A stretch of DNA of 64,000 nucleotides from Patescibacteria group bacterium (GCA_028718865.1 JAQUKX010000001.1:64067-128066), one strand, 5' to 3'. Shown: positions 19,919 through 46,795, numbered from the stretch's first letter. The notes: a model not told the origin generated them from the letters alone. A program made the numbers and translations.

Positions 19919-19921
19919 ATT

Positions 19922-25763: not shown

Positions 25764-26789
25764 CTACATACTACTATCCAAAAGCTCAAAGCTGTTTTGC
25801 ATCATTTGAAAAGTAGTATGGAAATTCTCGGTCAAAGCCGCGCCGCTTTCGTAAATAAGTATATAAATAAACTGATTGTTCACTGCCAAAATTTGCTTGC
25901 CGTCAGCTGAGCGCAAAGCTGGTTGTCCAGCCAGAGAATAATTTTGCATATTAGCTGCCGACGGCAACAGATTGCCCAGCTCCTGCCTGGCTTGACTAAG
26001 CGTCAATGCTCCGTCGTTGGCCATGGCATAAATAATGAAAAACTCCCCGGTCTCGGAATCCGGCAAAATCATAATCTGAGATAAGTCATTGCCAATAGCT
26101 TGCGCTACCCAAGGATTGGGCTTGAGCAATGAATAGCCGAACAAAGAATTAATAAACCTGTCTACCAGACCCGAATCTTCCAAACGTCCCGGGCCAAGAG
26201 GGTTATAAAGGTTGACTATCTCCATGCCATCGCTATAACCATCGCGGTCAGTATCAGGATTGTTGGGGTCAGTGCCATAGAGCATTTCTTCTTCATAAGT
26301 AAGCATATCATTATCAGCGTCTATATTGGTAATGGGCGCTGGCTCTGGAGTAGGCGTAGGTTCTGGTATTGGCGCTGGCTCTGGAACCGGCTCGGGTTCT
26401 GGCTGAACTTGCCCAGGTGGCGCCTGAATATTATTGTCAGCCGCGGGAGCTTGCTGGCCTGTCTGACTATCAGCCGGCAAGACCGGCTCTTCTGCTTGGG
26501 AAAAATACCAAAAAATACCCGCTAAGACTCCCCCTGAAATAAACATAAAAACCAAAGTAAAAATAACTATGCCTTTGACCGGTGATTTGACTCGGCTAGC
26601 TTTGACTGTCTTGCCCGGCGAAGCTGGCTTAGGCTCATTTTTGGAAATAGTGAATTTACCCGGCATAACATAAATAGAAGATTGATCAATCTCCGGCTCT
26701 GGAATGCTTTTGGGCTGGATATTTTCCTGATCCTGATCGCTGGCCTGATTAAAATTATTTGGATTTTTTGGGCTGCCAAAATTAAGCAT
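25764..26789 (-). CDS. single-pass membrane protein with Pro-rich linker and thrombospondin type-3-like Ca-binding repeats
   Basis: TM helix, (PEP)n linker, and DADND...DPNNPDTDRDGYSDG repeats. Confidence 0.6.
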   Translation of the reverse strand: MLNFGSPKNPNNFNQASDQDQENIQPKSIPEPEIDQSSIYVMPGKFTISKNEPKPASPGKTVKASRVKSPVKGIVIFTLVFMFISGGVLAGIFWYFSQAEEPVLPADSQTGQQAPAADNNIQAPPGQVQPEPEPVPEPAPIPEPTPTPEPAPITNIDADNDMLTYEEEMLYGTDPNNPDTDRDGYSDGMEIVNLYNPLGPGRLEDSGLVDRFINSLFGYSLLKPNPWVAQAIGNDLSQIMILPDSETGEFFIIYAMANDGALTLSQARQELGNLLPSAANMQNYSLAGQPALRSADGKQILAVNNQFIYILIYESGAALTENFHTTFQMMQNSFELLDSSM

Positions 26790-26823
26790 GATTTCTCAAG
26801 TTTACTGATTATATAAAAATTTT

Positions 26824-27741
26824 TTAATATAAGCGACCTGTACTTTGATATCTACCCAGAGCTTCTTCTATATGCTGCATGGGACGGAAGAAAAAATCAT
26901 CCGGCACTTGCTCCCAGAAGCTAGCTGGCAAGGGTATGGGCATAGCCGGCATTTCATCCAAAAGACCCGGGCCAAGAGGATTATAGTCATTTTCCACTTC
27001 TACTCCATCGCTATAGCCATCGCGGTCAGTGTCGGGATTGTTGGGGTCAGTGCCATAGATAAATATCTCTTCGTAATCAGTCAAACCGTCACCGTCAGTA
27101 TCAGCCAATAGTGGATTGGTGCGATAAACTCTCACCTCGTCATAATCCAGCACGCCGTCATTATCCGTGTCAGGATCATAAGGATTGGTACCCAAGGCTC
27201 TTTCTTCAGCATCACTTAGTCCATCCAGATCGCTGTCTAAAAACCTGTCATCGCCTATATCAATGATGGGATCAACATCTATGGGCGGCTCGTCGCCATT
27301 GCCGTTTTGCCCATTTACTGGTGGTTGCTCAATCGGCAAACCACCCCCTTCCGGCAAAAAATCGCTTCTAAAAACAAAATAATAAAAAGCGCCCCCCGCC
27401 AGTAGCAAAAGAAAAAATACTGATAACACTATAATTATTTTTTGCTTGGGACTTTGCCCCTCGGGAATATCTTGGCTAACCAAGTCTGCCGGCAAAGCTG
27501 GAGCCATTTGTTCGCTCTGCTGAGACGCTTCAGCAGTAGCTAAAGGTAAGCCTTGGTTGGGTGATATGGGCTGCATTTTGCCAGAACGCAAAGCACTAGG
27601 CTTCTCTTCAAATGAAGCGGCTCTTGCGACTGGCGACTGATTGACTTGGGAAGTTGGATCAACATCGGCAAACATATCGTCCAGCTTTTTCGGAACTTGG
27701 CCAGAACTCTGATTTTGATCTTTTTTTAAGTCATCAAACAT
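26824..27741 (-). CDS. single-pass membrane protein with four or more thrombospondin type-3-like repeats; paralog of 25764..26789
   Basis: DSDLDGLSD, DPDTDNDGVLD, DTDGDGLTD and DPNNPDTDRDGYSDG repeats. It shares a 53-nt near-identical tract with its neighbour. Confidence 0.6.
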   Translation of the reverse strand: MFDDLKKDQNQSSGQVPKKLDDMFADVDPTSQVNQSPVARAASFEEKPSALRSGKMQPISPNQGLPLATAEASQQSEQMAPALPADLVSQDIPEGQSPKQKIIIVLSVFFLLLLAGGAFYYFVFRSDFLPEGGGLPIEQPPVNGQNGNGDEPPIDVDPIIDIGDDRFLDSDLDGLSDAEERALGTNPYDPDTDNDGVLDYDEVRVYRTNPLLADTDGDGLTDYEEIFIYGTDPNNPDTDRDGYSDGVEVENDYNPLGPGLLDEMPAMPIPLPASFWEQVPDDFFFRPMQHIEEALGRYQSTGRLY

Positions 27742-27767: not shown

Positions 27768-30700
27768 CTAAGGAGTAGGTAAAGTACAATCCATAAACCC
27801 ATCACCACGGCCATCACAGAAAGTGGAATTAATCACTGATATAGTAGCCGCTGACCAGCCAGTAGTACTACTCAAATACCTGCCACCAGTGCCATCTGCC
27901 AAACATTGTCCATGAGCAGCCAATTCTGCGTGAAAATTAGTAAACAATACCGGACTAATAGCAACTTTTGTATTCTGAGAATTGGCCAAATCTATGGAAT
28001 GAGCTAAAACATCATGAGTGCCTGAACCAAAACTTGTATCTGGATTACAGTTTTCATTTGCTCTCAAAATAGATGCATTACTACCGCAATAACCACCTTC
28101 ATCGCTTACTGGAATAAGCAACCTGTGATATCCTGGTAGCCAATTATAATCTGGAATTATCTTGGTCATAGCATAGCCCCAGTTACTCAATCGTCCAGCT
28201 GCGTCGCCATGTCCGCTTATAAAACCCGGGTCAGGATTACCTATTATATTTAAATAATCCTGGCATCTTTCTCCGTAAAGAACTTGATCCCCATCTGCAG
28301 AAACTTCGCTGTTAATATCATTACTACTATTGTTATAAAAACTCAAATAACGAACTCTTTGGTTATAAGGAGCCTGGCGTAAAGGACAGTCAGTATACAA
28401 AGCTTTGAAGACTACTTGTGATTCATCTAGCCAGCCAGCCGATCCGAGCCAAGGCGATAAGCTCGGTATATCGTCAATGGTGATAGGTGTTAAATAAGTA
28501 GGAGTTACCGGATTGGTATATACACCGCCTCCTGGAACACCAGAGCCATCGGCCGATACTATACCACCGTCATTATCCCCCATTACAAAAATGGATATAC
28601 GATAATCAATGTCCCCGTAAGCGCCACTATCTAAATTATTCACCACCTGCTGCAAAGAGCTGCAAAGAGCGACCGCTCTATCATACATACTACCAGAAAC
28701 ATCAAATACATACACTATGTCTATATCTTTCTCTATCTGCACCGCTGGATCAAAACCAGTATCGCATTGTTCCCACTGCTGCACTATTCCGTCGCCGCAC
28801 CAACCGCCGGTATTGCCGCAACTAACACACTCGTACTGATTGTTGGGAGAGGAAAAATTAGCAAAATTGCTACCCCTAGGCCAAGGGAAACTACCGCCTG
28901 GAGGATTATTGCCACCCGGACCCCAATCGCAGCCTTCGCCAAAAAATACCTGTCTAATTCCGTCACCGCAATAAGGGCCGCTGGGATCGCTTCTTTGACA
29001 CATAAAGCTCCCTGTCATATCACAAGTATAAGTATTGTCCGGACCTGATTGAGCCGGCAAAGGTCTATTTGGATAATGCAGGCCATCACAAACCTCACTA
29101 TAAGCCAATTGGGCAATGCCGTCGCCGCAGTAACCGCCTATTCTAGCTAGACAATCCGCTCGGCAAGAATACTGATTAGTCTGACTTGACTGATCGGGCG
29201 AAGGCGGTGCCGGGCTTTGAGTTATACCTCGCCAAGGATCGCCTGGATCACAGAATTCATCATTACCCAAATCCCAAACGCCGTCGCCGCACCAACCGCC
29301 ATAAGTAGGAGAACAAGCTCCGTAGTTAAGCCCGTTATAAGTAAAATATCCAACTCCATGTGGACGACAAGCGTATTGATTAAAAGGAGTAGAATTAGGA
29401 GGGCTGGGCGTACTATAATTCATCAGATAATCACAATTCTCACCGAATTGAGATTGTAAAGTACCGTCGCCGCAATACTGGCTGGTAAATTGACACAATG
29501 TATTGCAAGCATAGGCTAAATTAGGACCAGAATCATGCGGGCTGGGTGTACTATAATTCATATAATCACACTGCTCTTCCGCTTGCACTATGCCATCACC
29601 GCAATACCCGGCATAAGGGGCGCCAACACTACAAGTCACTTGGCAAGAGCTGTTGCAACTAGCCACGCCGCCATTGGTACAGCCCCAGGTACTCAAGCCG
29701 CTGGGACTGGCTGATGAGTCACACTGCTCTATACCTGCCGACCAAACACCGTCACCACAACGAGCAGCTGGGTAAGCATTGGGTCCTTGATTACACATTG
29801 CCTGACAGCCTTGGCCACAGAATAAACCATGTCCAGACTGACAAATAAAATCACCAGCAAAATTATTACCTTCGCACTGCTCATAATAAGACTGAATAGT
29901 GCCATCACCACAATAACCACCGCATTCAGCCTCACCAAAAGGCGGATCTGGTACATACCAAGTACAGCTGATATCATTGCCGTTGGAGCCAATGGTGCCA
30001 GGCGGATTACAACCAACCATACGCGGTGTCCACCAATCATAGTTAGCTGGACAAGCATTTATAAATCCACCGTCACACTGCTCATTACCGTCAACTATAC
30101 CGTTACCGCAATAAGGACTAGCTGGCCCGCCAGGAGCATTGAGGTTTGTAGCATTACAATAACTAACCAAACCCAAATTGACATTTATACCTAAAGAAGA
30201 AAGTGTTGGTCGCAATCTATTAACAAAATTAATATTATACTGCGCCGGATAAATATCATATTCAAAGTTGGCACCTAAGTCATAATCCTGCCCCCCTGAT
30301 AAAACATTGTATAAATAAACTAAAGAATTTTGAGGACAAACAAAAGTATTAGGATCAACCGACTGATTCCAGCAAGTAGCAGGGTCAGCCCCCTCTGGAC
30401 AACCATTAAATCTATTAATTGGGTCAACTGCTGCCAATGAACCTAAGGCGGAAGAAAAAGCATCCTGCCAAGACGGCCAAGGGCTGGTAGACATGCCTTG
30501 GACATAAGTACCGGCTCCTAAAATAGGGTAATAAGGCCTGCAAGTTTGAGTACCGGGGCAATCATTATCTTGAGCGCAAGCCATCAAACTATTACCGCTG
30601 CAAGCTTTGTGACTTTGGCCGTATTCTTCCAGTCGCAAAGCTATACTAACCAAATCTGCCAAACGCTTGGTATCACGACGGAGCTTGAGTCCTTGGGAAA

Positions 30701-33700
30701 GGCAACGACCCTCACAGTCAAAATCGCTGCTACAAGCAATACTTGCATCTACTTCACAGACATTATTATTATTTTGAGTAATATTAATATTTAATTTAAG
30801 ATTATCCACAAATTGGCTAAAAATATTTATAGTATCCGGCCGAGCGCCAATATTATGCGCTAAAATATAAATATTGGTATACAAATTACCAGATATATTT
30901 GTACCGGCAATATAAATAGTACTGCCTACTTGCAAAGCCTGATAACCATCCACCTCTATCAAAATGCCTGGAATATTGGGGTTGGGGGCATGGCGCAAAA
31001 ACCAATCACGCACTGACAAATGCTGGTCATTTCTCATTATCCTAATACCAATAATATCAATACCTGGCTGAACATCAGCAACAGTCACTACCACTGGCGA
31101 AGAACGACTAAACTGATCGTCTCCGCCCGCACAAGCATCAGCATAAGAAGCCACTATATACTCATAAGTTTGCCCAGAAGCAACTGAAGCATCGGTATAA
31201 TTCAAAGTGGAAGTAGGCAAGGTATTTAGTAGGACATAATTACCGCCTAAAACCCGCCTATAAACCCTGAAGCCAGACGGGGGCAGCTGCAAAGGATTGC
31301 TGGGAGAAGAAGGAGTCAGCCAGCTCAAAGAAACACTATCATCAGTCACTGCTGTCACTTGTAGATTTCTTGGTGCATTAGGTATACACAAATCAATGCC
31401 TTGTTCCTGTCCCTGAGCAGAACCAATACCCAAAAAAGTCAACAGACGATTAAAAGGATTCTCTTTTGCTTGCTTTCTTTGCCGGACCGAATCTGAAGCA
31501 AACGCCAAACTGCCTAATCCGACATCCTCAATATATGAAGAAGTGATCGATGGATTAATAGTAAAAATATACTCCCGCAAACCATCGGTACTAAAATTAT
31601 CTCTAGGCGTAGGCAAATATTGCAAGTGTGGCAAAGATGTGCTACCCGGCAAACCTGAATACTGACAATAGAAAGTAGAAAAATTATAAGTTGACTCATT
31701 CCAAGGAAAGCCAGGAAGACTGGGCCAAGGATTCTCGCAGAAAAAAAGATTGATCAAGCCGCTGGCAGTGGTGGAACTGCCATCATCAGGACTACTGACT
31801 CCCGCACCTAGAGTCACTTGGCCGTTTTGACTGCCAGAAGTAACCAAAGTGTTTCCTGGTAACTGTGCCGCCGCCAAAGTAGCCAAAGAATTACTTAAAG
31901 ACCAAGTAAAATTTAGTAGGCTATTATTGAGAAGCTGGCCGGAAATACTATAGACAAAGGCCTCATAACTGCGCTGATTACCCAGCAAAGGACTGGCATC
32001 ATCAGGACAGTCATTTCTGCCTGTGCAGGTAAACCAGTCTGGAGTAGGGGCAATCCAAGCATTATGGACTCGGCAAGTTTGACCGCCCGTGCTAAAACTC
32101 CAACCCGCCTCGCCTGATAATCCCGGTGGCAAAGACGATAAGCCGGCAGATCCCGCCAAATCCAAAGGTATGTTATTTTGACTGACTACCTGACTAGCAT
32201 CTATTATCGCCATCCAAAATTGAGTATCAGCAGGCAATAAACTGCTAGGATTAAATATTGCCCGAGTTTCTCTTTCTGGATCATCATCCAAATTCATAGT
32301 AACAAAGCGGAAAGAGCCAGGTACTTCAATATAAGAACCATTGTCTTCTCTATATAATTTTATATTATTTCTAATACTCTCCTCGTTCATCCGCTCGGAA
32401 AAATCCAAATAAGGCGAAACATTGGTGCAGATATTTTGTCCAATAGGCTCACGGCCTATGATAGTAGGTGTATTATAAGAAACTGTGGTACCGCTGTTAT
32501 CAATAGTCAATAATCCAAAATCAGAGAAACTGCCGGCAATGGGATCGGTGAGTAAAACATCAACATTAGTACTACCAGACTCAAGAGCTGGTAAATCATT
32601 TCTTACTTGGACAAAACTATTACTACCTGAACCAGGTATTGAAGCTGCTCCTGAGGGAGTAGTATTACTCAAAGACCATTGATAAGTGCAATTAGGACAA
32701 TATACTGGCACGGGTCCGCAATTGGGAATATTGCTAGCCATAGCAGTAGCGTCAAATCTAGAAAGTTGTCCCAGCTGAGTAGATAGCTGTGTGTCGGGAT
32801 CTACATCAGCGCCTGACACCACGCACTGACTATCACCAGTGCTAAAATTCCAGCTAAGACTAACTGTGCTATTACCATCAGAAATAAATCCGGAGCTCAA
32901 AACTATATAATAAGTTTCTCCGGGCAGCAGAGGCCCATTGTAGCCAAAATCCATACGTCTATTGTTGGGGCTGAAAACAACAGAGTCATTAAAAATATTC
33001 GATCCGTTCGGAGCACCTTGATAAATAGCTATATTGCTGATATTAAGCGTGGCCGGCAAAACACTACGATTAAACTCCACTCTGATAATCGGATCCAAAC
33101 ACATGCCATCGCAATTCGGCCAATAATTAGTAATTGCCAAAGGCGTCTGCATAGAACCGCTAATATCCATAAGAAGTTCCCCTTGGGAAACAAAATTTTG
33201 ACCGCCATCAATTATAGTACCTAGTACTTCCGCACTACCTTGGCCAGCCAGCAAAAGATTTTGCACTCCCACTATTTGCTGATTTTGTCCACTGGCAATA
33301 TTTGCCGCTGAACTGTCCGGCAAAACAGCACCCAAAGCCCAGTTGTAAGTACAATTCTGGCAATAAACTATTGTTTCACCGCACTGGGGAGTGCTGCTGA
33401 TAGCATTAAGTCTATAATTGACAATCTGATTGGTAAGACTAGAAGTATAAGTTGACGGCGTAACCCGAGCATTGGAGATAACACACTGGTCATTACCAGT
33501 GGTAAAATCCCAGCTATAATCGGCAGCCAAAGCATTTCCCAATATATCAGTAAAACCTTGGCCCAAAGTAACACTATAAACAACGCCTGGTTGCAAAGGA
33601 ATAGGCAACTGAACATGCAAATATTGACCATTACCGGAAAAGCTATGGACAACTGGAGTAACCAGTGTAGCACCGGCTAACACCCTGATGTCATTTATAT

Positions 33701-36197
33701 CTGCGTGATTGAAAGTGGTTTGATCTATCTCCCTATTAAACCTAACCATCAATTCGGAAGTGGTGCAGGCGCCATCGCAATCAGGCGAGTGACTCAAGAC
33801 TTCCAAATTACCGCTCTCTGAGCTTATGCTCCAAGTATATTCGCAAAAATTAACTGTATCGCAACTGGTGCCACTCATACAAGAACTACCAGCGCTGGTT
33901 GGACAGCAAAGATTGCCTAATCCACTATCCATACATTGCTGATTGCTAGTGCAATTGCCGACATTAAAAGGCCAAGGATTGCTTTCGGTATTATTATTAT
34001 CTCTGACTATCGCCAATCCGGTTTGAGCATTGTTTGGCACACTAGTCATAATCTGATTATTGTTCCAAATCGAAGGAGTAGCCAAAGCGCCGTTGTAAAA
34101 AATAACACTGCCCATAGTAGCGCCAAAATTCTCCCCGACAAAAGTAACTGCCGTGCCTATTGGTCCGTTGTCTGGAGAGACATTACAGATCTGCGGTCCA
34201 GGCAAGCCGGCTAATACTTGGAAATTAACTGAATTGCTTTCAGCTTGGTCTGAATTTCTAATTACCCTAATAGGTTGTCCGCCCAAAGGCAAGCCAGAGG
34301 GCACCTTGACAATAATCCTGTCATTACGCCAATAATTACCGCCGCAAATCGCCGGAAAGCTAAAATCTCCATCTATACTGCCAAACAAAACTCTTCCTTG
34401 AGTATTGCCAAAGTTGGCTCCCATAATAGTGACATACTGGCCTATTGGGCCAGAATTTGGACTGACGCTATTGATTATAGGCAAACCACTTACTTGAGAT
34501 AAAGCTGTAAAAGGATAGGAATTACTCTCTTCTTCACTCGGAGATTCTATAACTACTCCTACATTACCCACTACATTGGGCACTTGGGCGGTATAAAGAT
34601 ATTGGGAAGAAAAATTAACCACACTGCTTTGGAAATTACCAAAATGAATCTGGCTATTATCCGCAAACTTCAAGCCATGGATGGTCACGCTTGTTTCAAA
34701 CGCGCCTGACAGGGGATCCAAACGGCAAATACCAGGCCGGTCAATGTTGTTTCTGGTAAATTGCACACCATTGCTCGTCTCTCCTCCTTCACTTATATCT
34801 TTCGTGATCGTCAATAAGCCATTTACAGCCGCTGCAGGCACAGCAATGACAATATAATTATCAGTCCAGGTATTGCTACACTGATTATTTATATCCGCCG
34901 GACGAATGCCATTGACAGTTGCGCCAGCGCCAGCGTCAAACGTCACTACTCCTTCCAAATCTCCAAAACCACTTCCATAAATGGTAATCAAATTACCTTC
35001 GTTGCCATTATCAGGAGAGATAGAATCAATCCTCGGCCCACCGGGCGTGCCGCTACCGGCACAAATAGCCGCTGGTAGACATGAATTTGACCGACAACAC
35101 CCTGAAGAACAATCGTTTCCCGAAGAACACTCTACTGTAAAAAACTCATTATCACTCTGACCACCGACTTCCACTACTACCTGACTGCTAAGAGCATTGG
35201 CCGGCACCTGGAAATTTATCAAATTATCTGTCCAATTGCTTATATTCAAATCAGTGTTGGTCAAATCAATTGTTTGATCATTTAGCCAGCCCAACATACT
35301 TAAACTTCCTTGAGTATTACCAAAGCCTATACCTTCTATATCCACGTTAATGGGCGCCGTGGCGCTATCAGGATTGAGACAATGGATATCTGGTCCAGTT
35401 ACATTACTGTCAACATTAAAGACAAAATCTGCCAGACCTGGCGGCACTTCATTTATGTTTCCCAAATCATTATAAAGATGAATGGTATAAAGGCCGTCAG
35501 TCAAGGTCAGAGGCACTCTCACATTTACTCTAGTATTTGACCAAGAATTGGCTGTTGTGCCGCCACAGACTACTAATTCAGCAACTGTTTCAGCCCCGCC
35601 AGCATCTCTTAATAAGACTCTACCATCCGCGTCCGGGTTATTATTTCCATTGGTATCAAAATTACGACCCCTGATAGTAATAGAAGCTCCCGGAGGCCCT
35701 GATTGCCTGTTTGTACTGCAAATAATAGGATTATCAGGATTAAGTGGCGCCGGACAATTACTCTGGCCGCCAGGAGGAGGAATACCATTTCCCGGTGTTC
35801 CCGGTGTTCCCGGACCAGTAGCATCATAGAGCTGATTCAGCACAAATCTAGCAATGCCATAAGAAGCCAAAATAATCACCAGACCAATAACAGCACTAAT
35901 AATCAGCATTTTGGCTCTTTGAATTTTGTCAGTTGCCCCGCGCGAGGTCATCCATAAAAATCCGCCATAAAGGAGCAGAAGCACCGCCAAAGTTCCCAAA
36001 AATCCCAAAAATATATTTATCACCAAAGCAATGGTTTCTTGAATAGACCTGGTACCCAAATAAACACCGGCATCAGCCAATTCATCAATGCCCAGCTCCT
36101 GGGCAGCTTGCGCCTGCACTTTGCTCATACTGACCAAAAACAAAGAAGAAGCGCTAAAAGTGATAAAAAATATTTTTTGCATGGCTATATTAAACAT
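27768..36197 (-). CDS. giant (2809 aa) multidomain cell-surface protein, putative adhesin
   Basis: Domain order: signal peptide, VirB2/TrbC-pilin-like two-TM anchor, Gly/Pro linker, five or more IPT/TIG domains, two Big_5/SbsA-Ig-like modules, FN3, about nine Cys-rich CGDG...CD repeats, then a C-terminal VWA domain (DIVYVFDVSGSM). Single uninterrupted ORF. Confidence 0.85.
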   Translation of the reverse strand: MFNIAMQKIFFITFSASSLFLVSMSKVQAQAAQELGIDELADAGVYLGTRSIQETIALVINIFLGFLGTLAVLLLLYGGFLWMTSRGATDKIQRAKMLIISAVIGLVIILASYGIARFVLNQLYDATGPGTPGTPGNGIPPPGGQSNCPAPLNPDNPIICSTNRQSGPPGASITIRGRNFDTNGNNNPDADGRVLLRDAGGAETVAELVVCGGTTANSWSNTRVNVRVPLTLTDGLYTIHLYNDLGNINEVPPGLADFVFNVDSNVTGPDIHCLNPDSATAPINVDIEGIGFGNTQGSLSMLGWLNDQTIDLTNTDLNISNWTDNLINFQVPANALSSQVVVEVGGQSDNEFFTVECSSGNDCSSGCCRSNSCLPAAICAGSGTPGGPRIDSISPDNGNEGNLITIYGSGFGDLEGVVTFDAGAGATVNGIRPADINNQCSNTWTDNYIVIAVPAAAVNGLLTITKDISEGGETSNGVQFTRNNIDRPGICRLDPLSGAFETSVTIHGLKFADNSQIHFGNFQSSVVNFSSQYLYTAQVPNVVGNVGVVIESPSEEESNSYPFTALSQVSGLPIINSVSPNSGPIGQYVTIMGANFGNTQGRVLFGSIDGDFSFPAICGGNYWRNDRIIVKVPSGLPLGGQPIRVIRNSDQAESNSVNFQVLAGLPGPQICNVSPDNGPIGTAVTFVGENFGATMGSVIFYNGALATPSIWNNNQIMTSVPNNAQTGLAIVRDNNNTESNPWPFNVGNCTSNQQCMDSGLGNLCCPTSAGSSCMSGTSCDTVNFCEYTWSISSESGNLEVLSHSPDCDGACTTSELMVRFNREIDQTTFNHADINDIRVLAGATLVTPVVHSFSGNGQYLHVQLPIPLQPGVVYSVTLGQGFTDILGNALAADYSWDFTTGNDQCVISNARVTPSTYTSSLTNQIVNYRLNAISSTPQCGETIVYCQNCTYNWALGAVLPDSSAANIASGQNQQIVGVQNLLLAGQGSAEVLGTIIDGGQNFVSQGELLMDISGSMQTPLAITNYWPNCDGMCLDPIIRVEFNRSVLPATLNISNIAIYQGAPNGSNIFNDSVVFSPNNRRMDFGYNGPLLPGETYYIVLSSGFISDGNSTVSLSWNFSTGDSQCVVSGADVDPDTQLSTQLGQLSRFDATAMASNIPNCGPVPVYCPNCTYQWSLSNTTPSGAASIPGSGSNSFVQVRNDLPALESGSTNVDVLLTDPIAGSFSDFGLLTIDNSGTTVSYNTPTIIGREPIGQNICTNVSPYLDFSERMNEESIRNNIKLYREDNGSYIEVPGSFRFVTMNLDDDPERETRAIFNPSSLLPADTQFWMAIIDASQVVSQNNIPLDLAGSAGLSSLPPGLSGEAGWSFSTGGQTCRVHNAWIAPTPDWFTCTGRNDCPDDASPLLGNQRSYEAFVYSISGQLLNNSLLNFTWSLSNSLATLAAAQLPGNTLVTSGSQNGQVTLGAGVSSPDDGSSTTASGLINLFFCENPWPSLPGFPWNESTYNFSTFYCQYSGLPGSTSLPHLQYLPTPRDNFSTDGLREYIFTINPSITSSYIEDVGLGSLAFASDSVRQRKQAKENPFNRLLTFLGIGSAQGQEQGIDLCIPNAPRNLQVTAVTDDSVSLSWLTPSSPSNPLQLPPSGFRVYRRVLGGNYVLLNTLPTSTLNYTDASVASGQTYEYIVASYADACAGGDDQFSRSSPVVVTVADVQPGIDIIGIRIMRNDQHLSVRDWFLRHAPNPNIPGILIEVDGYQALQVGSTIYIAGTNISGNLYTNIYILAHNIGARPDTINIFSQFVDNLKLNINITQNNNNVCEVDASIACSSDFDCEGRCLSQGLKLRRDTKRLADLVSIALRLEEYGQSHKACSGNSLMACAQDNDCPGTQTCRPYYPILGAGTYVQGMSTSPWPSWQDAFSSALGSLAAVDPINRFNGCPEGADPATCWNQSVDPNTFVCPQNSLVYLYNVLSGGQDYDLGANFEYDIYPAQYNINFVNRLRPTLSSLGINVNLGLVSYCNATNLNAPGGPASPYCGNGIVDGNEQCDGGFINACPANYDWWTPRMVGCNPPGTIGSNGNDISCTWYVPDPPFGEAECGGYCGDGTIQSYYEQCEGNNFAGDFICQSGHGLFCGQGCQAMCNQGPNAYPAARCGDGVWSAGIEQCDSSASPSGLSTWGCTNGGVASCNSSCQVTCSVGAPYAGYCGDGIVQAEEQCDYMNYSTPSPHDSGPNLAYACNTLCQFTSQYCGDGTLQSQFGENCDYLMNYSTPSPPNSTPFNQYACRPHGVGYFTYNGLNYGACSPTYGGWCGDGVWDLGNDEFCDPGDPWRGITQSPAPPSPDQSSQTNQYSCRADCLARIGGYCGDGIAQLAYSEVCDGLHYPNRPLPAQSGPDNTYTCDMTGSFMCQRSDPSGPYCGDGIRQVFFGEGCDWGPGGNNPPGGSFPWPRGSNFANFSSPNNQYECVSCGNTGGWCGDGIVQQWEQCDTGFDPAVQIEKDIDIVYVFDVSGSMYDRAVALCSSLQQVVNNLDSGAYGDIDYRISIFVMGDNDGGIVSADGSGVPGGGVYTNPVTPTYLTPITIDDIPSLSPWLGSAGWLDESQVVFKALYTDCPLRQAPYNQRVRYLSFYNNSSNDINSEVSADGDQVLYGERCQDYLNIIGNPDPGFISGHGDAAGRLSNWGYAMTKIIPDYNWLPGYHRLLIPVSDEGGYCGSNASILRANENCNPDTSFGSGTHDVLAHSIDLANSQNTKVAISPVLFTNFHAELAAHGQCLADGTGGRYLSSTTGWSAATISVINSTFCDGRGDGFMDCTLPTP

Positions 36198-36204
36198 TTT
36201 TTTA

Positions 36205-37830
36205 CTAAGGCACCTGACAATTCACTCCCGGACATTGCGAGCCAGAGGCATTATTATCACAAACACAAGACCCGCCTACTGGATCTTCGCAAGCACAAGG
36301 ATACCAGCAATTTTGCCTGGCATCTTTAATGCCGGAATTAAGCGTAACTCTATAATCAGCACTCAAATCAAAAGTGTCATGCTGAATTCTCAAAGTATCT
36401 CCCGGGCTGCCGCTGTCAATTCTCATCCAATAATTTATCAAGCCACCACCGGATCTTGTTAAATTAACGCTATTGGTATTTATAGAGCTGGAAAGAAGTG
36501 TTTTGTCAAAAACAACTCGAATAGGTTCATTTGCGCCAACGCTATTTGGCTCGTCCATACTGCTAATAACCGGCGGCGTCAAATCAATCTGATTATTAGT
36601 GGCAAACTGCCAGCCATAGCTGGTAGGCGCTACTGCAGCCACACCGCAACTCCCGGCGCAATTGAGTTGATTACCGGCCATATCACGAATATTATTGGTA
36701 ACCTCGCCGATAAAATCAGCGCCGCCGGGAAGGCAATAGACTTCTCCGCCACAGGAATTGTTGCCACAAAGGTCATCCGTCATAAACTCAATTGTCTGAT
36801 ATTGATTGGAAATAACATACTCTCCTGCTACTGGTGAACCTGCCGTACTCACCGTGATGTTGGCAAAAGAAGGGTGTATGCCCACGGCAAATAGCGGATT
36901 GACCGCTTCAGAAAAATTTATTTGCACTATACTGTTTCGAGGATTATTACTTGAATTGTGCCTAGGTTGAACTGAAATAACACGAGGCGGAGCAAGATCA
37001 AGATCGGTACTGACAGTAAAACGCCAGCTATAACCCCCAACCAGCGGAAAAGCCGCTGCTCCAGCAGCTGTACGCAAAGAAGCCAAGTCCATCCTATATC
37101 TGACATTTTCCGTATCACTGCCTAAATGACTATCGGTGTTGCCATAAGGATTAAACTCAAAAACTCGCGGACTAGCCGTATAGCTAATCAGCAAATCACT
37201 ACCGCTAATATAATTATTTGTCCCATCTATATATAACCTGATATTTGTTTCATGAGCCGGACAATCGCTAACACAACTGGCATTAGCCACAATAGTAGAA
37301 ACATCCATATCTTCTCTAAAAGTCACGTAAATATTGGTATTTCTAGGAATCCCCGTAGCATTTCTAGCCGGATAATGACTATCTAGAACTCCGCCTGACA
37401 ATCCAACGCCGCCGCTGTAGCCGCTGCCTACTCCCGAACCACCAGGCCCCTGAATAACATAACGATCATAGTTCTGTAAAATAAAGCGAGCAATAGCATA
37501 GGAAGATAATACTATTACCAAACCAATCACTCCGTTGATAATGATTCTCTTAGCTTTATCTACCTTATCGGAACTACCTCCGGACGTCATCCAAATAAAA
37601 CCGCCGTAGAGTATGATCAAGGTGGTCAAAACTCCCAAAAATCCTAAAAATATATTTATAATCAAAGCAATGGTCTGACGTATATCTCTAGTGCCCAAAT
37701 TAACGCCAGCGTCTGCCAACTCATCAATACCCAATTCTTGAGCAGCTTGAGCCAAAGATAGCTGGGGGAATAAAAAAATAACCGCCAAAAACAAAATAAA
37801 TAAAACGGTTATTTTTTTACGACTAAGCAT
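36205..37830 (-). CDS. 541-aa surface protein with the same VirB2/TrbC-pilin-like N-terminal anchor plus Big_5/Ig-like domains
   Basis: Residues about 27-110 are about 75% identical to the giant protein N-terminus. A Gly-rich linker and PPV...SbsA-Ig-like motifs follow. It ends 7 nt upstream of the giant gene. Confidence 0.75.
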   Translation of the reverse strand: MLSRKKITVLFILFLAVIFLFPQLSLAQAAQELGIDELADAGVNLGTRDIRQTIALIINIFLGFLGVLTTLIILYGGFIWMTSGGSSDKVDKAKRIIINGVIGLVIVLSSYAIARFILQNYDRYVIQGPGGSGVGSGYSGGVGLSGGVLDSHYPARNATGIPRNTNIYVTFREDMDVSTIVANASCVSDCPAHETNIRLYIDGTNNYISGSDLLISYTASPRVFEFNPYGNTDSHLGSDTENVRYRMDLASLRTAAGAAAFPLVGGYSWRFTVSTDLDLAPPRVISVQPRHNSSNNPRNSIVQINFSEAVNPLFAVGIHPSFANITVSTAGSPVAGEYVISNQYQTIEFMTDDLCGNNSCGGEVYCLPGGADFIGEVTNNIRDMAGNQLNCAGSCGVAAVAPTSYGWQFATNNQIDLTPPVISSMDEPNSVGANEPIRVVFDKTLLSSSINTNSVNLTRSGGGLINYWMRIDSGSPGDTLRIQHDTFDLSADYRVTLNSGIKDARQNCWYPCACEDPVGGSCVCDNNASGSQCPGVNCQVP

Positions 37831-40001: not shown

Positions 40002-40661
40002 TTATGGATATTGAGGCAAATTAAAAGTGCCCAGCCGGTTAAAAGGCCAGCCTCTGACCCAGACCCGGCCGATAATGTTGCTTTTGGCTATAGGTCCAAG
40101 CTGGCGGGAATCAAAACTATTGATGCGATTGTCGCCCAAGATAAAATACTGATCATCAGCCAAGGCCACACTGGGATGATCCTCAGTGGAAAAATGACTG
40201 ATGTACTCCTCAGCTAGAATTTGGCCGTCTATATAGACGCGACCTTCTTTCAAGCTTACTTCTTCACCGGGCAAACCAATGACTCTTTTGATAAAATAAC
40301 TACCCCGTTGACGAGGATTTTTGAAAATAATCACCTCACCTCTTTGCGGCTCATTGAAGCGATAAGATATCTCATCAATTATCAAATATTCATTTTCATA
40401 AAAATTGGGCTCCATGGAAGCGCCCTCTACATAAAAAGGTTGAATGAGAAACATCCGCACTGGCAGAATAATAGCCAAAGATATCAAAACAACTTTGATT
40501 ATCTCAAAAATAAACAGGCCTATTTTTTTACCAAAACTCAAGCCCGGATCCTCGTCGTTTTGGGAAAAATTGTCCAAATCCAAATCATCAGGCTCAAATT
40601 CCGGCTCTTGGCGGGAAAAATGGGCAAAATCATTTTCCTTATCTTGTTTCTCGTTTTCCAT
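40002..40661 (-). CDS. lepB: signal peptidase I
   Basis: GASMEPNF and GDNRINSFDSR boxes. The longer track ORF ending at 40760 would start with TTG (per my position count) and covers the promoter. The ATG at 40659-40661 (MENEKQ...) is preferred. Confidence 0.85.
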   Translation of the reverse strand: MENEKQDKENDFAHFSRQEPEFEPDDLDLDNFSQNDEDPGLSFGKKIGLFIFEIIKVVLISLAIILPVRMFLIQPFYVEGASMEPNFYENEYLIIDEISYRFNEPQRGEVIIFKNPRQRGSYFIKRVIGLPGEEVSLKEGRVYIDGQILAEEYISHFSTEDHPSVALADDQYFILGDNRINSFDSRQLGPIAKSNIIGRVWVRGWPFNRLGTFNLPQYP

Positions 40662-40695
40662 AAAAAATAATAAATTAGCTCTTAATAATGGACTT

Positions 40696-40724
40696 ATTAT
40701 ACACAAAGACCAAATTAAAATCAA
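40696..40724 (-). promoter_or_regulatory. sigma70-like promoter for the lepB-hisS-rpsU-yqeY operon
   Basis: Minus strand reads TTGATT, a 17-nt spacer containing TG, then TATAAT. This is about 35 nt upstream of the lepB ATG. Confidence 0.5.
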
Positions 40725-40769
40725 ATCAAAAATAAGCGGAAAATAAAGGGAAAATAACAAAACCCAGGT

Positions 40770-44539: not shown

Positions 44540-44620
44540 TTACAAACTCATCAGCCAGCGAGCCATAGTACGCACGCCAAAGCCAGATGCACTAGCTGGG
44601 GTGTAGCTATCGACCAAGAG
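44540..44620 (-). repeat. duplicate copy of the last about 25 codons of the aminopeptidase gene; direct repeat with 46796..46875
   Basis: ttacaaactcatcagccagcgagccatagtacgcacgccaaagcc differs from the sequence at 46796 by 1 of 45 nt. It translates on the minus strand to ...SYTPASASGFGVRTMARWLMSL*. Confidence 0.8.
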
Positions 44621-44625
44621 TAGAT

Positions 44626-45531
44626 CTAATAATTTCTGAAGGAAGATTGAGGTATTTTTTCAAAATTCCATCTTTCTTTCCAACTTTCACCATCACGTGA
44701 TACATCAAAATTTTTTGCACCTAAATTTATAGCTTCATCAATATTTTTTATAATTATATATTTGCCTATATTAGGAAGTAATTCTATATCAGAAGCTGTC
44801 TCAAGAAAAAAATATTTATTTCTAAATAAAATTGAAATTGATATGCCTATTTTTTTTTCACCTAGCATAAAAGTAAATACATGATAGTTGTATTTTAGCT
44901 TCAAAAAATCGATGAAATTTTGTCTTTCATCTTTATCATTGAAGCTAGATTCAGCTCCCCATCTTTTAATCTTAAATTTGAAGTATATATCTATATCATC
45001 GAAGTTATTTTTAATTACCTTTATATCTTTTTCACTGATTTTTTTTATTTCTCTTCTCAATTTTCTACGGTGCTCAATAGAACCTTTAAATTTTTTTTCT
45101 ATAAAATCATTATGATCTTTTATGTTGCCTAAAGGAAGATTGTATATATAGTTTTTAATCTGTTTTTGTATTATAAAAATATGATTTCTTTCTAAATTAT
45201 CGAAATAGGCCTTTTCGTTGGCAGCTTCATAAAATTTCGGCACATATTCCTCCCAACCTGGAGTGATAAAAACTTTATTTTCATCCATATATTCGCCACC
45301 GAAAAATTCAAGATAACCTTTTTCGGAATTAAATTGCAGTGGAAGTAACCCTATATTCTTTTCTTGATATTCCCCCACAAAAAATTTTATTGGAAATTTT
45401 TTGTGGCTAAAAAAACAATAACGAAACTCCCAATCATCATATAAGGATTTTTTTGGAGATAATTCTTCCCAGATAATTTTTGCTTTTTGAATATCATCAA
45501 CTATTTTTATTATCAAAGATGATTCATTCAT
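44626..45531 (-). CDS. putative FemAB/BioF2-like (GNAT-fold) acyltransferase
   Basis: 301-aa AT-rich ORF resembling Acetyltransf_6-type enzymes from polysaccharide/peptidoglycan modification clusters. Low-confidence family call. Confidence 0.35.
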   Translation of the reverse strand: MNESSLIIKIVDDIQKAKIIWEELSPKKSLYDDWEFRYCFFSHKKFPIKFFVGEYQEKNIGLLPLQFNSEKGYLEFFGGEYMDENKVFITPGWEEYVPKFYEAANEKAYFDNLERNHIFIIQKQIKNYIYNLPLGNIKDHNDFIEKKFKGSIEHRRKLRREIKKISEKDIKVIKNNFDDIDIYFKFKIKRWGAESSFNDKDERQNFIDFLKLKYNYHVFTFMLGEKKIGISISILFRNKYFFLETASDIELLPNIGKYIIIKNIDEAINLGAKNFDVSRDGESWKERWNFEKIPQSSFRNY

Positions 45532-46642: not shown

Positions 46643-46795
46643 TTTTTAATAAGTAAACGCATACGAAGTTGGTTCCGCAGTGACCATAATATAATTTTAA
46701 CATCACGGAAACAAGAAGGCAACTTAAAGAAAACCAGCTCAAAAAGTTGATTTTCTCACATAATTAGTATTATTGAATTTATTATCTAGAAAAAA

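What the first reader, a model, noticed from the sequence alone, without database searches (positions are those of the whole stretch)
27768..37830. Tandem surface-protein pair sharing a VirB2/TrbC-pilin-like N-terminal anchor: a 2809-aa multidomain giant and a 541-aa paralog
Both proteins begin with a signal peptide followed by two TM helices separated by a short loop (AQELGIDELADAG...LYGGF[LI]WMTS.G..DK...AK...). That layout is the architecture of conjugative T4SS pilins, not of a sortase or lipobox anchor. The giant then has a Gly/Pro linker, at least five IPT/TIG domains, two Big_5-like modules each followed by a conserved Cys motif (CG....YC.NCTY.W), an FN3, about nine Myxococcus-type CGDG Cys-rich repeats and a C-terminal VWA (MIDAS DxSxS) domain. 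A pilin-like domain fused to about 2700 aa of adhesion domains suggests a filament- or membrane-tethered adhesin, possibly for attachment to a host or partner cell. The 7-nt gap between the two genes implies co-translation.
Basis: partly seen in the sequence, partly recalled or inferred. Interest (0 to 1): 0.85.

Follow-up and report, generated by a model that had tools for sequence, protein, structure and literature searches.

The report
Pilin-anchored giant adhesin gene pair
Two neighbouring genes of an ultra-small (Patescibacteria) bacterium encode surface proteins, one of them 2,809 residues long, that begin with the small membrane module normally found only in conjugation-type (type IV secretion) pilins; this fusion is conserved in hundreds of species, was not described in the papers I could search, and may be how these host-dependent cells display their adhesins.

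Summary
ORFs 36205-37830(-) (541 aa) and 27768-36197(-) (2,809 aa) lie 7 nt apart. They share only their first ~125 residues (61% identity): a signal peptide plus two hydrophobic helices.

That module scores above Pfam's curated cut-off for PF18895 T4SS_pilin in both proteins. All 40 relatives tested match it, and 25 of 40 also match TrbC/VirB2. TIG x5, Big_5 x3, FN3 and nine Myxococcus-type Cys repeats are confirmed. The C-terminal VWA has only moderate support.

It is not an artefact. In 380 species genomes (named ones are GTDB class ABY1: Komeili-, Falkow-, Uhr-, Buchananbacteria) the ~540-aa gene exists. In 66 of 70 informative loci a second, large pilin-module gene follows it, and usually two TSP3-repeat membrane proteins after that, all in a housekeeping neighbourhood.

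No T4SS gene is nearby. Five of six carrier genomes listed in a published survey have VirB4 elsewhere, and that survey counted an orthologous giant as "VirB2" without noting its size.

The hairpin is the best-conserved part of the small protein, and the two modules co-evolve within genomes.

Most likely these are fibrillar surface adhesins held by an exapted pilin module. True modular T4SS pilins remain possible. I rate it a new variant of a known kind.

The parts
36205..37830 (-). Gene A: 541-aa protein = signal peptide + VirB2/TrbC-type pilin module + Gly-rich linker + 3 Big_5 Ig-like domains + Cys-rich C-terminal knob
   Evidence: ORF. Pfam PF18895 32.8 bits (cut-off 26.6) and Big_5 with 3 stretches. 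Identical to the NCBI protein named 'Ig-like domain-containing protein [Patescibacteria group bacterium]'. At least 120 full-length orthologue clusters.
37750..37830 (-). Gene A signal peptide (aa 1-27; SLA|QA cleavage site inferred)
   Evidence: Hydrophobic segment 1-30. The AxA-type site is read from the sequence. Cleavage was not tested.
37471..37749 (-). Gene A pilin module (aa 28-120): short N-terminal helix, TM1 (about 53-82), loop SGGSSDKVDKAKR, TM2 (about 97-118)
   Evidence: PF18895 covers positions 3-71 of 71; TrbC scores 25.9 bits, sub-threshold. AF2 model has pLDDT 82, and above 90 in the hairpin H23-54/H60-99. This is the most conserved region of the family: 59% mean pairwise identity against 43% for the Ig region.
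36208..37383 (-). Gene A ectodomain (aa 150-541): three Big_5 domains and a Cys-rich end (invariant D503, Q506, N507, C508)
   Evidence: Pfam. Invariant columns in a 41-sequence alignment.
27768..36197 (-). Gene B: 2,809-aa giant with the same N-terminal pilin module and a long multidomain ectodomain
   Evidence: ORF. Pfam PF18895 28.0 bits, TIG, Big_5 and fn3. Identical to library protein P0126. Full-length orthologues P0150, P0152, P0149 and P0198.
35832..36110 (-). Gene B pilin module (aa 30-122)
   Evidence: PF18895 34.2 bits on the N-terminus alone. 61% identical to the gene A module over 125 aa. The orthologue KKP92012.1 is listed as VirB2 (T_virB2 profile) in PMC12102498 Table S3.
33954..35726 (-). 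Gene B stalk part 1: five IPT/TIG domains (about aa 158-748), preceded by a Gly/Pro linker (aa 125-146)
   Evidence: PF01833, 5 stretches, E 1.2e-37.
32088..33800 (-). Gene B stalk part 2: three Big_5 stretches (about aa 800-1370), two followed by CGxxxVYCxNCTYxW
   Evidence: PF13205 E 2.6e-22, 3 stretches. Motifs read at about residues 940 and 1160.
31134..31376 (-). Gene B FN3 domain (aa 1608-1688). The flanking segments aa 1371-1600 and 1700-2020 match no family.
   Evidence: PF00041 28.2 bits against a cut-off of 25. The 1371-1600 segment has 0 Pfam families.
28758..30116 (-). Gene B: nine Myxococcus-type Cys-rich acidic repeats (CG[DN]G at 2030...2467)
   Evidence: TIGR02232 48.6 bits (cut-off 20.8). 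PF13948 35.6 bits (cut-off 27). Regex count of 9.
27771..28757 (-). Gene B C-terminal head (aa 2481-2809): VWA-like domain with DVSGS (2499-2503) and SDE (2698-2700)
   Evidence: DxSxS and SDE are invariant in 5 orthologues. AF2 model has pLDDT 54 and pTM 0.64 with a beta-alpha-beta pattern. Foldseek top hits are integrin beta3 beta-I (prob 0.96-0.99, E about 2e-3), VWF A1, CD11b I, BatB and SpaC. No VWA Pfam hit below E 0.04.
26824..27741 (-). Associated gene: type II membrane protein with bacterial TSP3 (Ca-binding) repeats, 26 nt downstream of gene B
   Evidence: PF18884 84 bits. Single TM read from the sequence. A homologue follows the giant in 26 of 29 genomes where this can be seen.
25764..26789 (-). 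Associated gene: second TSP3-repeat type II membrane protein
   Evidence: Sub-threshold TSP3_bac hit. Sequence. A homologue follows the giant in 24 of 29 genomes.
40002..40760 (-). Context only: signal peptidase I (LepB), the candidate enzyme for removing the pilin-module leader
   Evidence: PF10502 157 bits. Within 5.5 kb upstream on the same strand in 52 of 63 loci. A functional link is inference only.

Best explanation
A conserved chromosomal module of class-ABY1 Patescibacteria encodes a pair of fibrillar surface adhesins. They are held in the cytoplasmic membrane by an exapted VirB2/TrbC-type pilin module.

Shown:
- Both proteins start with a Sec-type signal peptide and a PF18895 helical hairpin.
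- Everything after the hairpin is built from extracellular-type domains.
- The pair, plus two TSP3-repeat membrane proteins, is syntenic across hundreds of species.

Inferred:
- After export and cleavage by signal peptidase I, the hairpin sits N-out/C-out, with the basic loop (DKVDKAKR) on the cytoplasmic side, as in pilin membrane pools.
- The Gly-rich linker and Ig-like stalk (5 TIG, 3 Big_5, FN3) carry the Cys-rich repeats and the VWA-like, metal-dependent head through the wall to the distal tip. There it binds a partner or host cell or a polymer.
- The 541-aa protein is a shorter, much more conserved companion.
- The two hairpins contact each other or a common partner in the membrane. This would explain why the hairpin is the best-conserved region and why the two copies co-evolve within each genome.

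In this reading the proteins stay membrane-anchored and do not need the T4SS.
For: - Pilin-family membership of the module.
- Only three hydrophobic segments and no other anchor type.
- Confident hairpin model.
- The domain order (anchor, linker, Ig-like stalk, Cys repeats, VWA-like head) is that of a stalk-plus-tip fibrillar adhesin.
- No T4SS gene lies in the 64-kb window.
- No third pilin-module ORF lies within +/-10 kb of the pair in 76 of 80 loci. There the neighbours are LepB-HisRS-S21-YqeY upstream and TSP3, YbeY, DAGK and FtsA downstream.
- In GCA_000991205.1 the orthologous giant is flagged 'not near virB4'.
- The module is used widely as an N-terminal handle. Of the 150 closest representative clusters, 67 are single-module proteins of 201-5,873 aa, always with the module at the N-terminus.
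- A 2,680-aa appendage on every subunit is sterically incompatible with being the major subunit of a VirB2-type helical filament. This rests on established knowledge of F- and T-pilus packing and was not tested here.
Against: - A passive anchor should be the least constrained part of the protein. Here the hairpin is the most conserved part: 59% against 43% mean pairwise identity.
- Fused modules are as similar to a stand-alone 126-aa pilin (P0133, 52%) as to each other.
- Within-genome identity of the two modules (63%) far exceeds that of orthologous modules across genomes (46-47%). This points to specific protein contacts or repeated gene conversion.
- Five of six carrier genomes listed in PMC12102498 Table S1 do have VirB4, so T4SS-dependent assembly is not excluded.
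- Four of 80 loci hold a third pilin-module ORF; in three of them (L075, L082, L086) it is a small, stand-alone-size pilin gene between the two, like a pilin array.
- Nothing has been tested for surface location, cleavage or binding.
Confidence: 0.45

Rival explanations
1. They are true modular T4SS pilins. The chromosomal Patescibacteria T4SS (VirB4, TrsD, VirB3, VirB6) extracts the two pilin modules from the membrane. It builds them, at low copy and probably as the initiating or tip complex, into a filament of stand-alone VirB2-like pilins. The pilus thereby carries its own adhesins.
For: - The module keeps the full family signature and is the most conserved region.
- The two modules co-evolve within genomes, as expected for subunits that pack against each other.
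- The module's C-terminus points outward, so a C-terminal extension is topologically compatible (pilus topology is from established F-/T-pilus structures).
- Some loci have a small pilin gene between the pair.
- Carrier genomes usually have VirB4.
- The published survey found VirB2-like pilins but 'no adhesins such as PrgB' in Patescibacteria.
- Single-chain proteins with 2-17 tandem pilin modules exist.
- A tube about 8.6 nm wide links a Patescibacterium to its host in cryo-ET (PMC11880426).
Against: - The pair is never seen next to T4SS genes in the window or in 80 loci. VirB4 is common in the phylum anyway, so co-occurrence says little.
- No Patescibacteria VirB2-like protein has been shown to form a pilus.
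- The appendage is huge.
- Fold and PDB-sequence searches give no specific link to solved conjugative pilins.
- tblastn against 72,556 plasmids finds nothing.
Confidence: 0.3
2. It is a structural envelope component, such as an S-layer-like or wall-spanning scaffold or a division-associated surface structure, rather than a host or partner adhesin.
For: - Core-genome location between S21/YqeY and YbeY, DAGK, FtsA and FtsZ, conserved across a class-level lineage.
- The 541-aa protein is strongly conserved, with many invariant Cys, Trp and His residues. That is unusual for host-range adhesins.
- Constant association with Ca-binding TSP3 membrane proteins.
Against: - The giant varies widely in length (907-3,347 aa when complete) and in its distal domains. 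Only 4 of about 22 giant clusters share the VWA-like head. This is typical of ligand-facing adhesins.
- TIG, FN3, VWA and Cys-repeat domains are adhesin-type modules.
- No lattice-forming (SLH or S-layer) domain was detected.
Confidence: 0.15
3. The similarity to pilins is a chance resemblance of any signal peptide plus two TM helices, or the giant ORF is an assembly artefact.
For: - Helical hairpins are structurally generic.
- The TrbC score of the window proteins is below Pfam's cut-off.
Against: - PF18895 scores above its curated cut-off in both proteins and in 40 of 40 relatives, and TrbC matches 25 of 40.
- Independent T_virB2 hit in the literature.
- 30,307 representative clusters match the module at E<=1e-3 with a conserved loop motif.
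- No near-identical DNA repeats.
- The architecture is reproduced in at least 66 independent assemblies.
Confidence: 0.02

Closest known systems
VirB2-like pilins and pilin arrays of Patescibacteria (Wang et al. 2023, PMC10633639; Quinonero-Coronel et al. 2025, PMC12102498; review PMC12857230)
   Same: Same Pfam family (PF18895, partly PF04956) and same phylum. Two adjacent, sequence-divergent pilin-module genes fit the paper's definition of a 'VirB2 array'. The orthologous giant KKP92012.1 is in that paper's VirB2 list.
   Different: Described pilins are small. Neither the survey nor the review mentions pilin modules fused to hundreds or thousands of residues of adhesin domains, and the survey states that no adhesins were found. 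The essential Southlakia array lies inside the T4SS cluster; this pair lies in a housekeeping neighbourhood far from virB4.
Canonical conjugative pilins: VirB2 (T-pilus), TraA (F-pilus), TrbC (RP4)
   Same: Leader peptide, two hydrophobic helices and a short basic loop. There is profile-level homology. Topology has both ends outside.
   Different: Those are pre-proteins of about 70-145 aa, often cyclised or acetylated, encoded in T4SS operons of diderm plasmids. Here the proteins are 541 and 2,809 aa in a chromosomal core region of a monoderm. No sequence hit to any solved pilin or to plasmids was found.
Modular type IV pilins, e.g. Streptococcus sanguinis PilB with a vWA module (from my own knowledge: Raynaud et al., PNAS 2021; not checked here)
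   Same: Same design idea: a polymerisation or anchor module at the N-terminus and an adhesin module, including a MIDAS-type VWA, grafted on the C-terminus.
   Different: An unrelated pilin superfamily with a class III signal peptide and prepilin peptidase, which are absent here. Those appendages are tens of kDa, not about 290 kDa.
Gram-positive T4SS adhesins such as PrgB (pCF10)
   Same: A surface adhesin proposed to make the cell-cell contact needed by a monoderm T4SS.
   Different: PrgB is LPXTG-anchored and encoded in the T4SS operon. The survey found no homologue in Patescibacteria. Here there is no LPXTG and no T4SS linkage.
Giant Ig-repeat fibrillar adhesins (e.g. SiiE, PMC6272769; Mobiluncus 7,651-aa adhesin, PMC10619420)
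   Same: A long stalk of Ig-like domains with a distal binding region; the largest protein of a small proteome.
   Different: Those use T1SS or sortase/LPXTG anchoring at the opposite end. Here an N-terminal pilin-type hairpin is the only anchor.
Mbov_0395 family pilin-like conjugal transfer protein of Mycoplasma ICEs (NCBIfam NF045849)
   Same: A weak profile match over 72 of 80 positions for both proteins (E 1.5e-6 and 3e-5). It is a pilin-like component in another wall-less or monoderm lineage.
   Different: Scores of 27.8 and 23.6 bits are below the 40-bit cut-off, so the proteins are not members. Those proteins are small.

Membership tests
T4SS pilin superfamily (Pfam PF18895 T4SS_pilin / PF04956 TrbC-VirB2) | Profile match above the curated gathering score | tested here: met
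   PF18895 scores 32.8 and 28.0 bits on the full proteins and 35.2 and 34.2 on the N-termini, against a cut-off of 26.6. 40 of 40 relatives match. PF04956 scores only 25.9 and 13.4 against 27.9 for the window proteins, but 25 of 40 relatives match at E<=1e-3.
T4SS pilin superfamily | Leader peptide followed by two hydrophobic helices joined by a short basic loop (helical hairpin) | tested here: met
   Hydropathy segments at 1-30, 50-83 and 95-119 (small) and 4-27, 52-85 and 91-121 (giant). AF2 hairpin with pLDDT above 90.
T4SS pilin superfamily | Specific structural similarity to solved conjugative pilins | tested here: inconclusive
T4SS pilin superfamily | Small protein (about 70-150 aa pre-pilin) with no further domains | tested here: not met
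   541 and 2,809 aa, with 410 and 2,680 residues of extracellular domains after the module.
T4SS pilin superfamily | Encoded with the T4SS machinery (virB4 neighbourhood) | tested here: not met
   No VirB4, B6, B11 or D4 Pfam hit among 40 neighbouring ORFs of the window. Conserved housekeeping neighbours in 80 loci. KKP92012.1 is flagged 'No' for virB4 proximity. The rest of the source genome could not be read.
T4SS pilin superfamily | Polymerises into an extracellular pilus in a VirB4-dependent way | not testable with these tools
   Needs fractionation, cryo-EM or cryo-ET, or genetics.
von Willebrand factor A (VWA) domain with MIDAS | VWA profile match | tested here: not met
   Only TssR_VWA at E 0.043 and 13.3 bits over 39 residues. 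No PDB sequence hit.
von Willebrand factor A (VWA) domain with MIDAS | DxSxS motif plus downstream MIDAS Thr and Asp on a Rossmann-like beta-alpha-beta fold | tested here: inconclusive
   DVSGS (2499-2503) and SDE (2698-2700) are invariant in 5 orthologues. The model shows alternating beta-alpha-beta but has pLDDT 54. Best Foldseek matches are integrin beta-I and other VWA domains, at E about 2e-3 and TM 0.38. The MIDAS Thr could not be assigned.
Myxococcus cysteine-rich acidic repeat (TIGR02232 / PF13948 DUF4215) | Profile above cut-off; repeated CGDG...C units | tested here: met
   TIGR02232 48.6 bits against 20.8. PF13948 35.6 bits against 27. Nine CG[DN]G motifs.
Type IV (class III signal peptide) pilins, including modular T4P pilins | N-terminal class III signal peptide (G|F/M-xxx-E) followed by a single hydrophobic alpha1 helix | tested here: not met
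   No such motif in the first 60 residues. Instead there is a Sec-type leader with an AxA site and two TM helices.
Sortase-anchored (LPXTG) surface proteins | C-terminal LPXTG, hydrophobic segment and basic tail | tested here: not met
   No C-terminal LPXTG (one internal LPPSG at residue 1638). No hydrophobic segment after residue 121.

The most novel reading that the evidence does not exclude
These would be the first modular conjugative-type (VirB2) pilins. The two co-evolving pilin modules would co-assemble with the cell's small VirB2-like pilins, as the priming or tip complex of a T4SS-dependent filament. That would supply the 'missing' adhesin of the essential Patescibacteria T4SS. Together with the tandem 'poly-pilin' proteins, it would mean the phylum has turned the VirB2 fold into a general, polymerisable surface-display scaffold.
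Probability: 0.3. Interest if true: 0.85.

Novelty: new variant of a known kind. Interest (0 to 1): 0.6.

Why it matters
Patescibacteria make up a large share of bacterial diversity and live attached to other cells. Their T4SS and its VirB2-like pilins are essential in the one species tested, yet their role is described as unknown (PMC10633639, PMC11665869, PMC12857230). The phylum-wide survey found pilins but no adhesins.

This analysis adds four points:
- The pilin module is very often the N-terminal handle of large extracellular proteins.
- One such pair is a core, syntenic feature of a whole class.
- The hairpin is under stronger constraint than the ectodomain.
- An orthologous giant of this pair has already been counted as a 'VirB2' in published tallies, so some such counts include giant fusion proteins.

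The result gives concrete candidates (a conserved 541-aa protein and a giant with a VWA-like head) for the structures that tether these cells. It also gives a clear either/or experiment: membrane anchor or pilus subunit. If they are pilus subunits, that would change the view that conjugative pilins are always minimal peptides.

Tried and rejected
- A homologue search with the giant's C-terminal 329 aa found nothing, not even the protein itself. Orthologues were recovered instead by local BLAST among proteins fetched for the N-terminal search.
- I tried to walk along the source contig (137,949 bp in NCBI) to look for VirB4. Only Logan contigs of about 2 kb carry the window's end genes, so the rest of this genome was not inspected.
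- The context of stand-alone pilins closest to the module was uninformative. P0133 sits on a 687-bp contig, P0145 is not on record, and P0166 sits at a contig end with no T4SS gene in the 8 kb visible.
- A profile of 40 modules against PDB sequences gave 0 hits. tblastn of the module against 72,556 plasmids gave no match.
- The promoter and terminator scan gave no intergenic terminator within the S21...DAGK run and only consensus-level promoter matches, so the operon structure is not established.
- Recent gene conversion was rejected as the sole cause of module similarity in this genome. The two 5' regions are about 80% identical at DNA level, with no long identical tract. Older conversion cannot be excluded.
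- Sortase, lipoprotein and type IV pilin anchors were rejected.
- Collapsed-repeat artefact was rejected.
- My look-up of the giant in the listing of cluster members failed because I omitted the first codon. Identity to P0126 was confirmed separately.

Full report
**1. What is in the sequence**

They are 36205-37830 (541 aa) and 27768-36197 (2,809 aa), separated by 7 nt.

Each protein has three hydrophobic segments, all within the first ~120 residues, and none afterwards. They are a Sec-type leader ending in an AxA-like site and two transmembrane-length helices joined by a short basic loop (SGGSSDKVDKAKR and SRGATDKIQRAKM). Neither protein has a class III (type IV pilin) leader, a C-terminal LPXTG motif or a C-terminal anchor.

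The two proteins are 61% identical over residues 1-125 (E 2e-36). They show no other significant BLAST similarity, so they are paralogous only in this module. Both ectodomains do contain Big_5 domains and a shared CGxxxVYC motif.

**2. Domain check**

- Small protein: three Big_5 stretches and a Cys-rich C-terminal end whose D503/Q506/N507/C508 are invariant in 41 orthologues.
- Giant: a Gly/Pro linker, five TIG stretches, three Big_5 stretches and an FN3.
- Two of the giant's Big_5 stretches are followed by CGxxxVYCxNCTYxW.
- Giant: nine CG[DN]G repeats, which score above the curated cut-offs of TIGR02232 (48.6 against 20.8 bits) and PF13948 (35.6 against 27).
- About 550 residues (1371-1600 and 1700-2020) match no family.

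- No VWA profile is significant; the best is TssR_VWA at E 0.043. No PDB sequence matches.
- Four orthologous giants share this domain, with DxSxS and an SDE motif invariant.
- An AlphaFold model has low confidence (pLDDT 54, pTM 0.64) but alternates beta-alpha-beta.
- Its best PDB matches are integrin beta-I domains (probability 0.96-0.99, E about 2e-3, TM 0.38). VWF-A1, the CD11b I-domain, BatB and the pilus adhesin SpaC follow.

I call the domain VWA-like with moderate support. The MIDAS Thr could not be assigned.

**3. Is the N-terminal module a T4SS pilin?**

By family criteria it is.
- PF18895 (T4SS_pilin) scores 32.8 and 28.0 bits on the whole proteins and 35.2 and 34.2 on the isolated N-termini, against a gathering score of 26.6.
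- TrbC/VirB2 (PF04956) falls just below its cut-off for the small protein (25.9 against 27.9) and well below for the giant (13.4). Of 40 diverse relatives of the module, 40 match PF18895 and 25 match TrbC at E<=1e-3, the best at 3.3e-8.
- NCBIfam gives a sub-threshold match to the Mycoplasma ICE 'pilin-like conjugal transfer protein'.
- The phylum-wide T4SS survey of Quinonero-Coronel et al. (PMC12102498) lists KKP92012.1 as a VirB2 homologue found with the CONJScan MPF-T VirB2 profile. I showed that KKP92012.1 is the 2,268-aa orthologue of the giant in locus L038.

Structure adds little. The mature module models confidently as a helical hairpin (pLDDT 82, above 90 in the helices), but hairpins are generic.
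- Foldseek finds nothing with E<1.
- A profile of the module hits no PDB sequence, and tblastn finds nothing in 72,556 plasmids.

Homology to the VirB2/TrbC superfamily is therefore supported by several independent sequence profiles, not by fold comparison.

**4. It is real, conserved and lineage-wide**

The 541-aa protein is identical to an NCBI MAG protein annotated only as 'Ig-like domain-containing protein [Patescibacteria group bacterium]'. It has at least 120 full-length orthologue clusters at 32-59% identity, 117 of them with precomputed PF18895 plus Big_5.

A scan of one genome per GTDB species found relatives in 380 genomes. The named ones are Komeili-, Falkow-, Uhr- and Buchananbacteria and 'Parcubacteria group'. 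The six carrier genomes I looked up in the survey's Table S1 are all assigned to class ABY1.

In the best 80 loci:
- 66 of 70 loci with enough downstream sequence have a second pilin-module ORF within 1 kb on the same strand. Complete ones are 907-3,347 aa, median 2,523.
- Homologues of the two TSP3-repeat type II membrane proteins that follow the giant in the window (26824-27741 and 25764-26789) follow it in 26 and 24 of 29 informative loci.
- The upstream block LepB-HisRS-S21-YqeY is present in 49-55 of 63 loci.

DNA repeats inside the genes are only 63-85% identical. An assembly artefact is excluded.

**5. How common is the fusion?**

The 130-residue N-terminus matches 30,307 representative clusters (50% identity level) at E<=1e-3 and 6,434 at E<=1e-10. 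The best 150 break down as follows:
- 35 are stand-alone, pilin-size proteins (200 aa or less).
- 39 are 201-1,000 aa, 6 are 1,001-2,000 aa and 22 exceed 2,000 aa (up to 5,873 aa). All of these have the module at the N-terminus.
- 48 are single chains with 2-17 tandem modules.

The pilin module is thus a widely reused N-terminal handle for extracellular proteins in this phylum.

In the literature I could search, I found no description of such fusions. The sources were the survey, the 2025 T4SS nomenclature review (PMC12857230), Wang et al. 2023 (PMC10633639) and a 2024 perspective (PMC11665869), plus five full-text searches. The survey states that no adhesins such as PrgB were detected.

**6. 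Relation to a T4SS**

Nothing in the 64-kb window is a T4SS component. Forty neighbouring ORFs are housekeeping or envelope genes; ComEC lies 13 kb away. Only the two ORFs carry the module. I could not read the rest of the source contig.

In the survey's tables, five of six carrier genomes have VirB4, and the sixth is a 619-kb partial MAG. In GCA_000991205.1, VirB4 and TrsD are genes 233-234 while the giant is gene 648, flagged as not near virB4. VirB4 is common in the phylum, so this co-occurrence is compatible with a link but not diagnostic of one.

**7. Two observations that constrain the mechanism**

First, in 41 orthologues of the small protein the TM1-loop-TM2 hairpin is the most conserved region. 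Its mean pairwise identity is 59%, against 43% for the Ig region and 36% for the linker. This is the opposite of what a passive membrane anchor would show.

Second, in 71 genomes the two modules of one genome are on average 63% identical. Orthologous modules across genomes are 46-47% identical, and non-partner A-B pairs 45%. The genome's own partner is the best-matching B module in 31 of 71 cases.

In the window, the two 5' regions are about 80% identical at DNA level without long identical tracts. So there is either repeated older gene conversion or co-adaptation, for example because the hairpins touch each other or the same partner.

**8. Mechanism**

Shown: export signals, a pilin-family hairpin, an extracellular-type domain string and conserved synteny.

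Inferred from pilin biology and the positive-inside distribution: after cleavage, probably by the nearby LepB-type signal peptidase I, the hairpin lies N-out/C-out. Everything C-terminal of it is therefore outside the cell.

The order of parts (anchor, flexible linker, Ig-like stalk, Cys-rich repeats, VWA-like head) is that of a fibrillar adhesin with a distal binding tip.

My best single reading, at 0.45, is a membrane-rooted adhesin pair using an exapted pilin module that works independently of the T4SS. This is the most parsimonious reading given the housekeeping context, the sheer size of the appendage, and the broad use of the module as an N-terminal handle.

The main rival, at 0.30, is that these are genuine modular VirB2-type pilins incorporated at low copy, most plausibly as an initiating or tip complex, into a T4SS-built filament. 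That would explain the strong constraint on the hairpin, the within-genome co-evolution, the occasional small pilin gene between the pair and the absence of any other T4SS adhesin. A tube about 8.6 nm wide between a Patescibacterium and its host seen by cryo-ET (PMC11880426) shows that pilus-calibre structures exist in the phylum, although in another class.

A structural-envelope role (0.15) is suggested by the core-genome position and the conservation of the small protein. It is disfavoured by the variable, adhesin-type distal domains of the giant.

**9. Comparison with known systems and verdict**

The module is a member of the T4SS_pilin family by profile and hairpin criteria. The proteins fail two features that characterise known conjugative pilins: small size and linkage to the T4SS gene cluster. 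Polymerisation cannot be tested here.

They work like fibrillar adhesins and, conceptually, like the modular type IV pilins of Gram-positive bacteria. That analogy comes from my own knowledge and was not checked here. They belong to neither family.

I rate the finding a new variant of a known kind. It is a conserved, class-wide pair of VirB2-type pilin-module fusion proteins. Databases hold them and at least one is counted in a published tally, but I did not find them recognised or explained as fusions.

Interest is 0.6. A T4SS or CPR specialist would be surprised by a 2,809-aa 'VirB2', and the membrane-anchor versus pilus-subunit question can be tested directly. The function is still inferred, and the more ordinary anchor reading is at least as likely.

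Noticed in passing
Library proteins P0124, P0125, P0127, P0131 and others; not in the window: 48 of the 150 closest relatives of the pilin module are single polypeptides with 2-17 tandem pilin modules ('poly-pilins'). They have one signal peptide. Each module is helix, TM1, a GGNxEKVxKAKK loop and TM2, joined by linkers of about 25 residues that would be extracellular. The papers I read did not mention them.
   Followed up: partly
window 44543-47764: A low-GC island (GC 0.31-0.34 against about 0.42) carries a FemAB/GNAT-like gene (44626-45531) and a 372-aa gene with no Pfam hit (45524-46642). It lies between pth and pepA, which are adjacent in relatives. The pepA here (46796-47764, 322 aa) lacks residues about 294-463 of the 496-aa orthologue, which is most of the catalytic domain. 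A second copy of the last 24 pepA codons lies at 44543-44614, suggesting an insertion that duplicated the pepA 3' end.
   Followed up: partly
window 25764-27741 (-): Two type II membrane proteins with bacterial thrombospondin type 3 (Ca-binding) repeats follow the giant. They are syntenic with it in 24-26 of 29 other genomes, so they are probably part of the same functional module. Their role is unknown.
   Followed up: partly
PMC12102498 Table S3; locus L038 5212-12015: The published VirB2 tally for Patescibacteria includes at least one giant fusion protein: KKP92012.1, 2,268 aa, annotated 'Fibronectin type III domain protein'. Its 529-aa partner KKP92013.1 does not appear in the rows shown. 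Counts of 'VirB2 pilins' in such surveys therefore mix small pilins with large fusion proteins.
   Followed up: partly
window 19343-21703 (-): A secreted 593-aa protein has a prenyltransferase/terpene-cyclase-like alpha-alpha toroid region and DUF4430. A 191-aa protein with a signal peptide and a C-terminal TM helix plus basic tail follows it. These envelope proteins of unknown role lie between NrdR and a HtrA-like protease.
   Followed up: no
window 14953-16422 (-): A 489-aa protein with an N-terminal TM segment and no Pfam match lies directly upstream of ComEC (13509-14855) and an MBL-fold protein (12701-13516). The survey notes that in ABY1 the T4SS loci often sit with competence or recombination genes, but no T4SS gene was recognised here.
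   Followed up: no
loci L075, L079, L082, L086: Four of 80 loci have three pilin-module ORFs. In L075, L082 and L086 a small 149-186-aa stand-alone-size pilin ORF lies between the ~540-aa gene and the giant. In L079 there are two mid-size ORFs (842 and 868 aa) plus a giant. This links the pair to conventional 'pilin arrays'.
   Followed up: no
window 1-64000: No tRNA or tmRNA gene occurs in 64 kb. Nearly all genes are on the minus strand, with uniformly negative GC skew, so the window lies within one replichore and far from the origin-proximal position reported for many Patescibacteria T4SS clusters.
   Followed up: no
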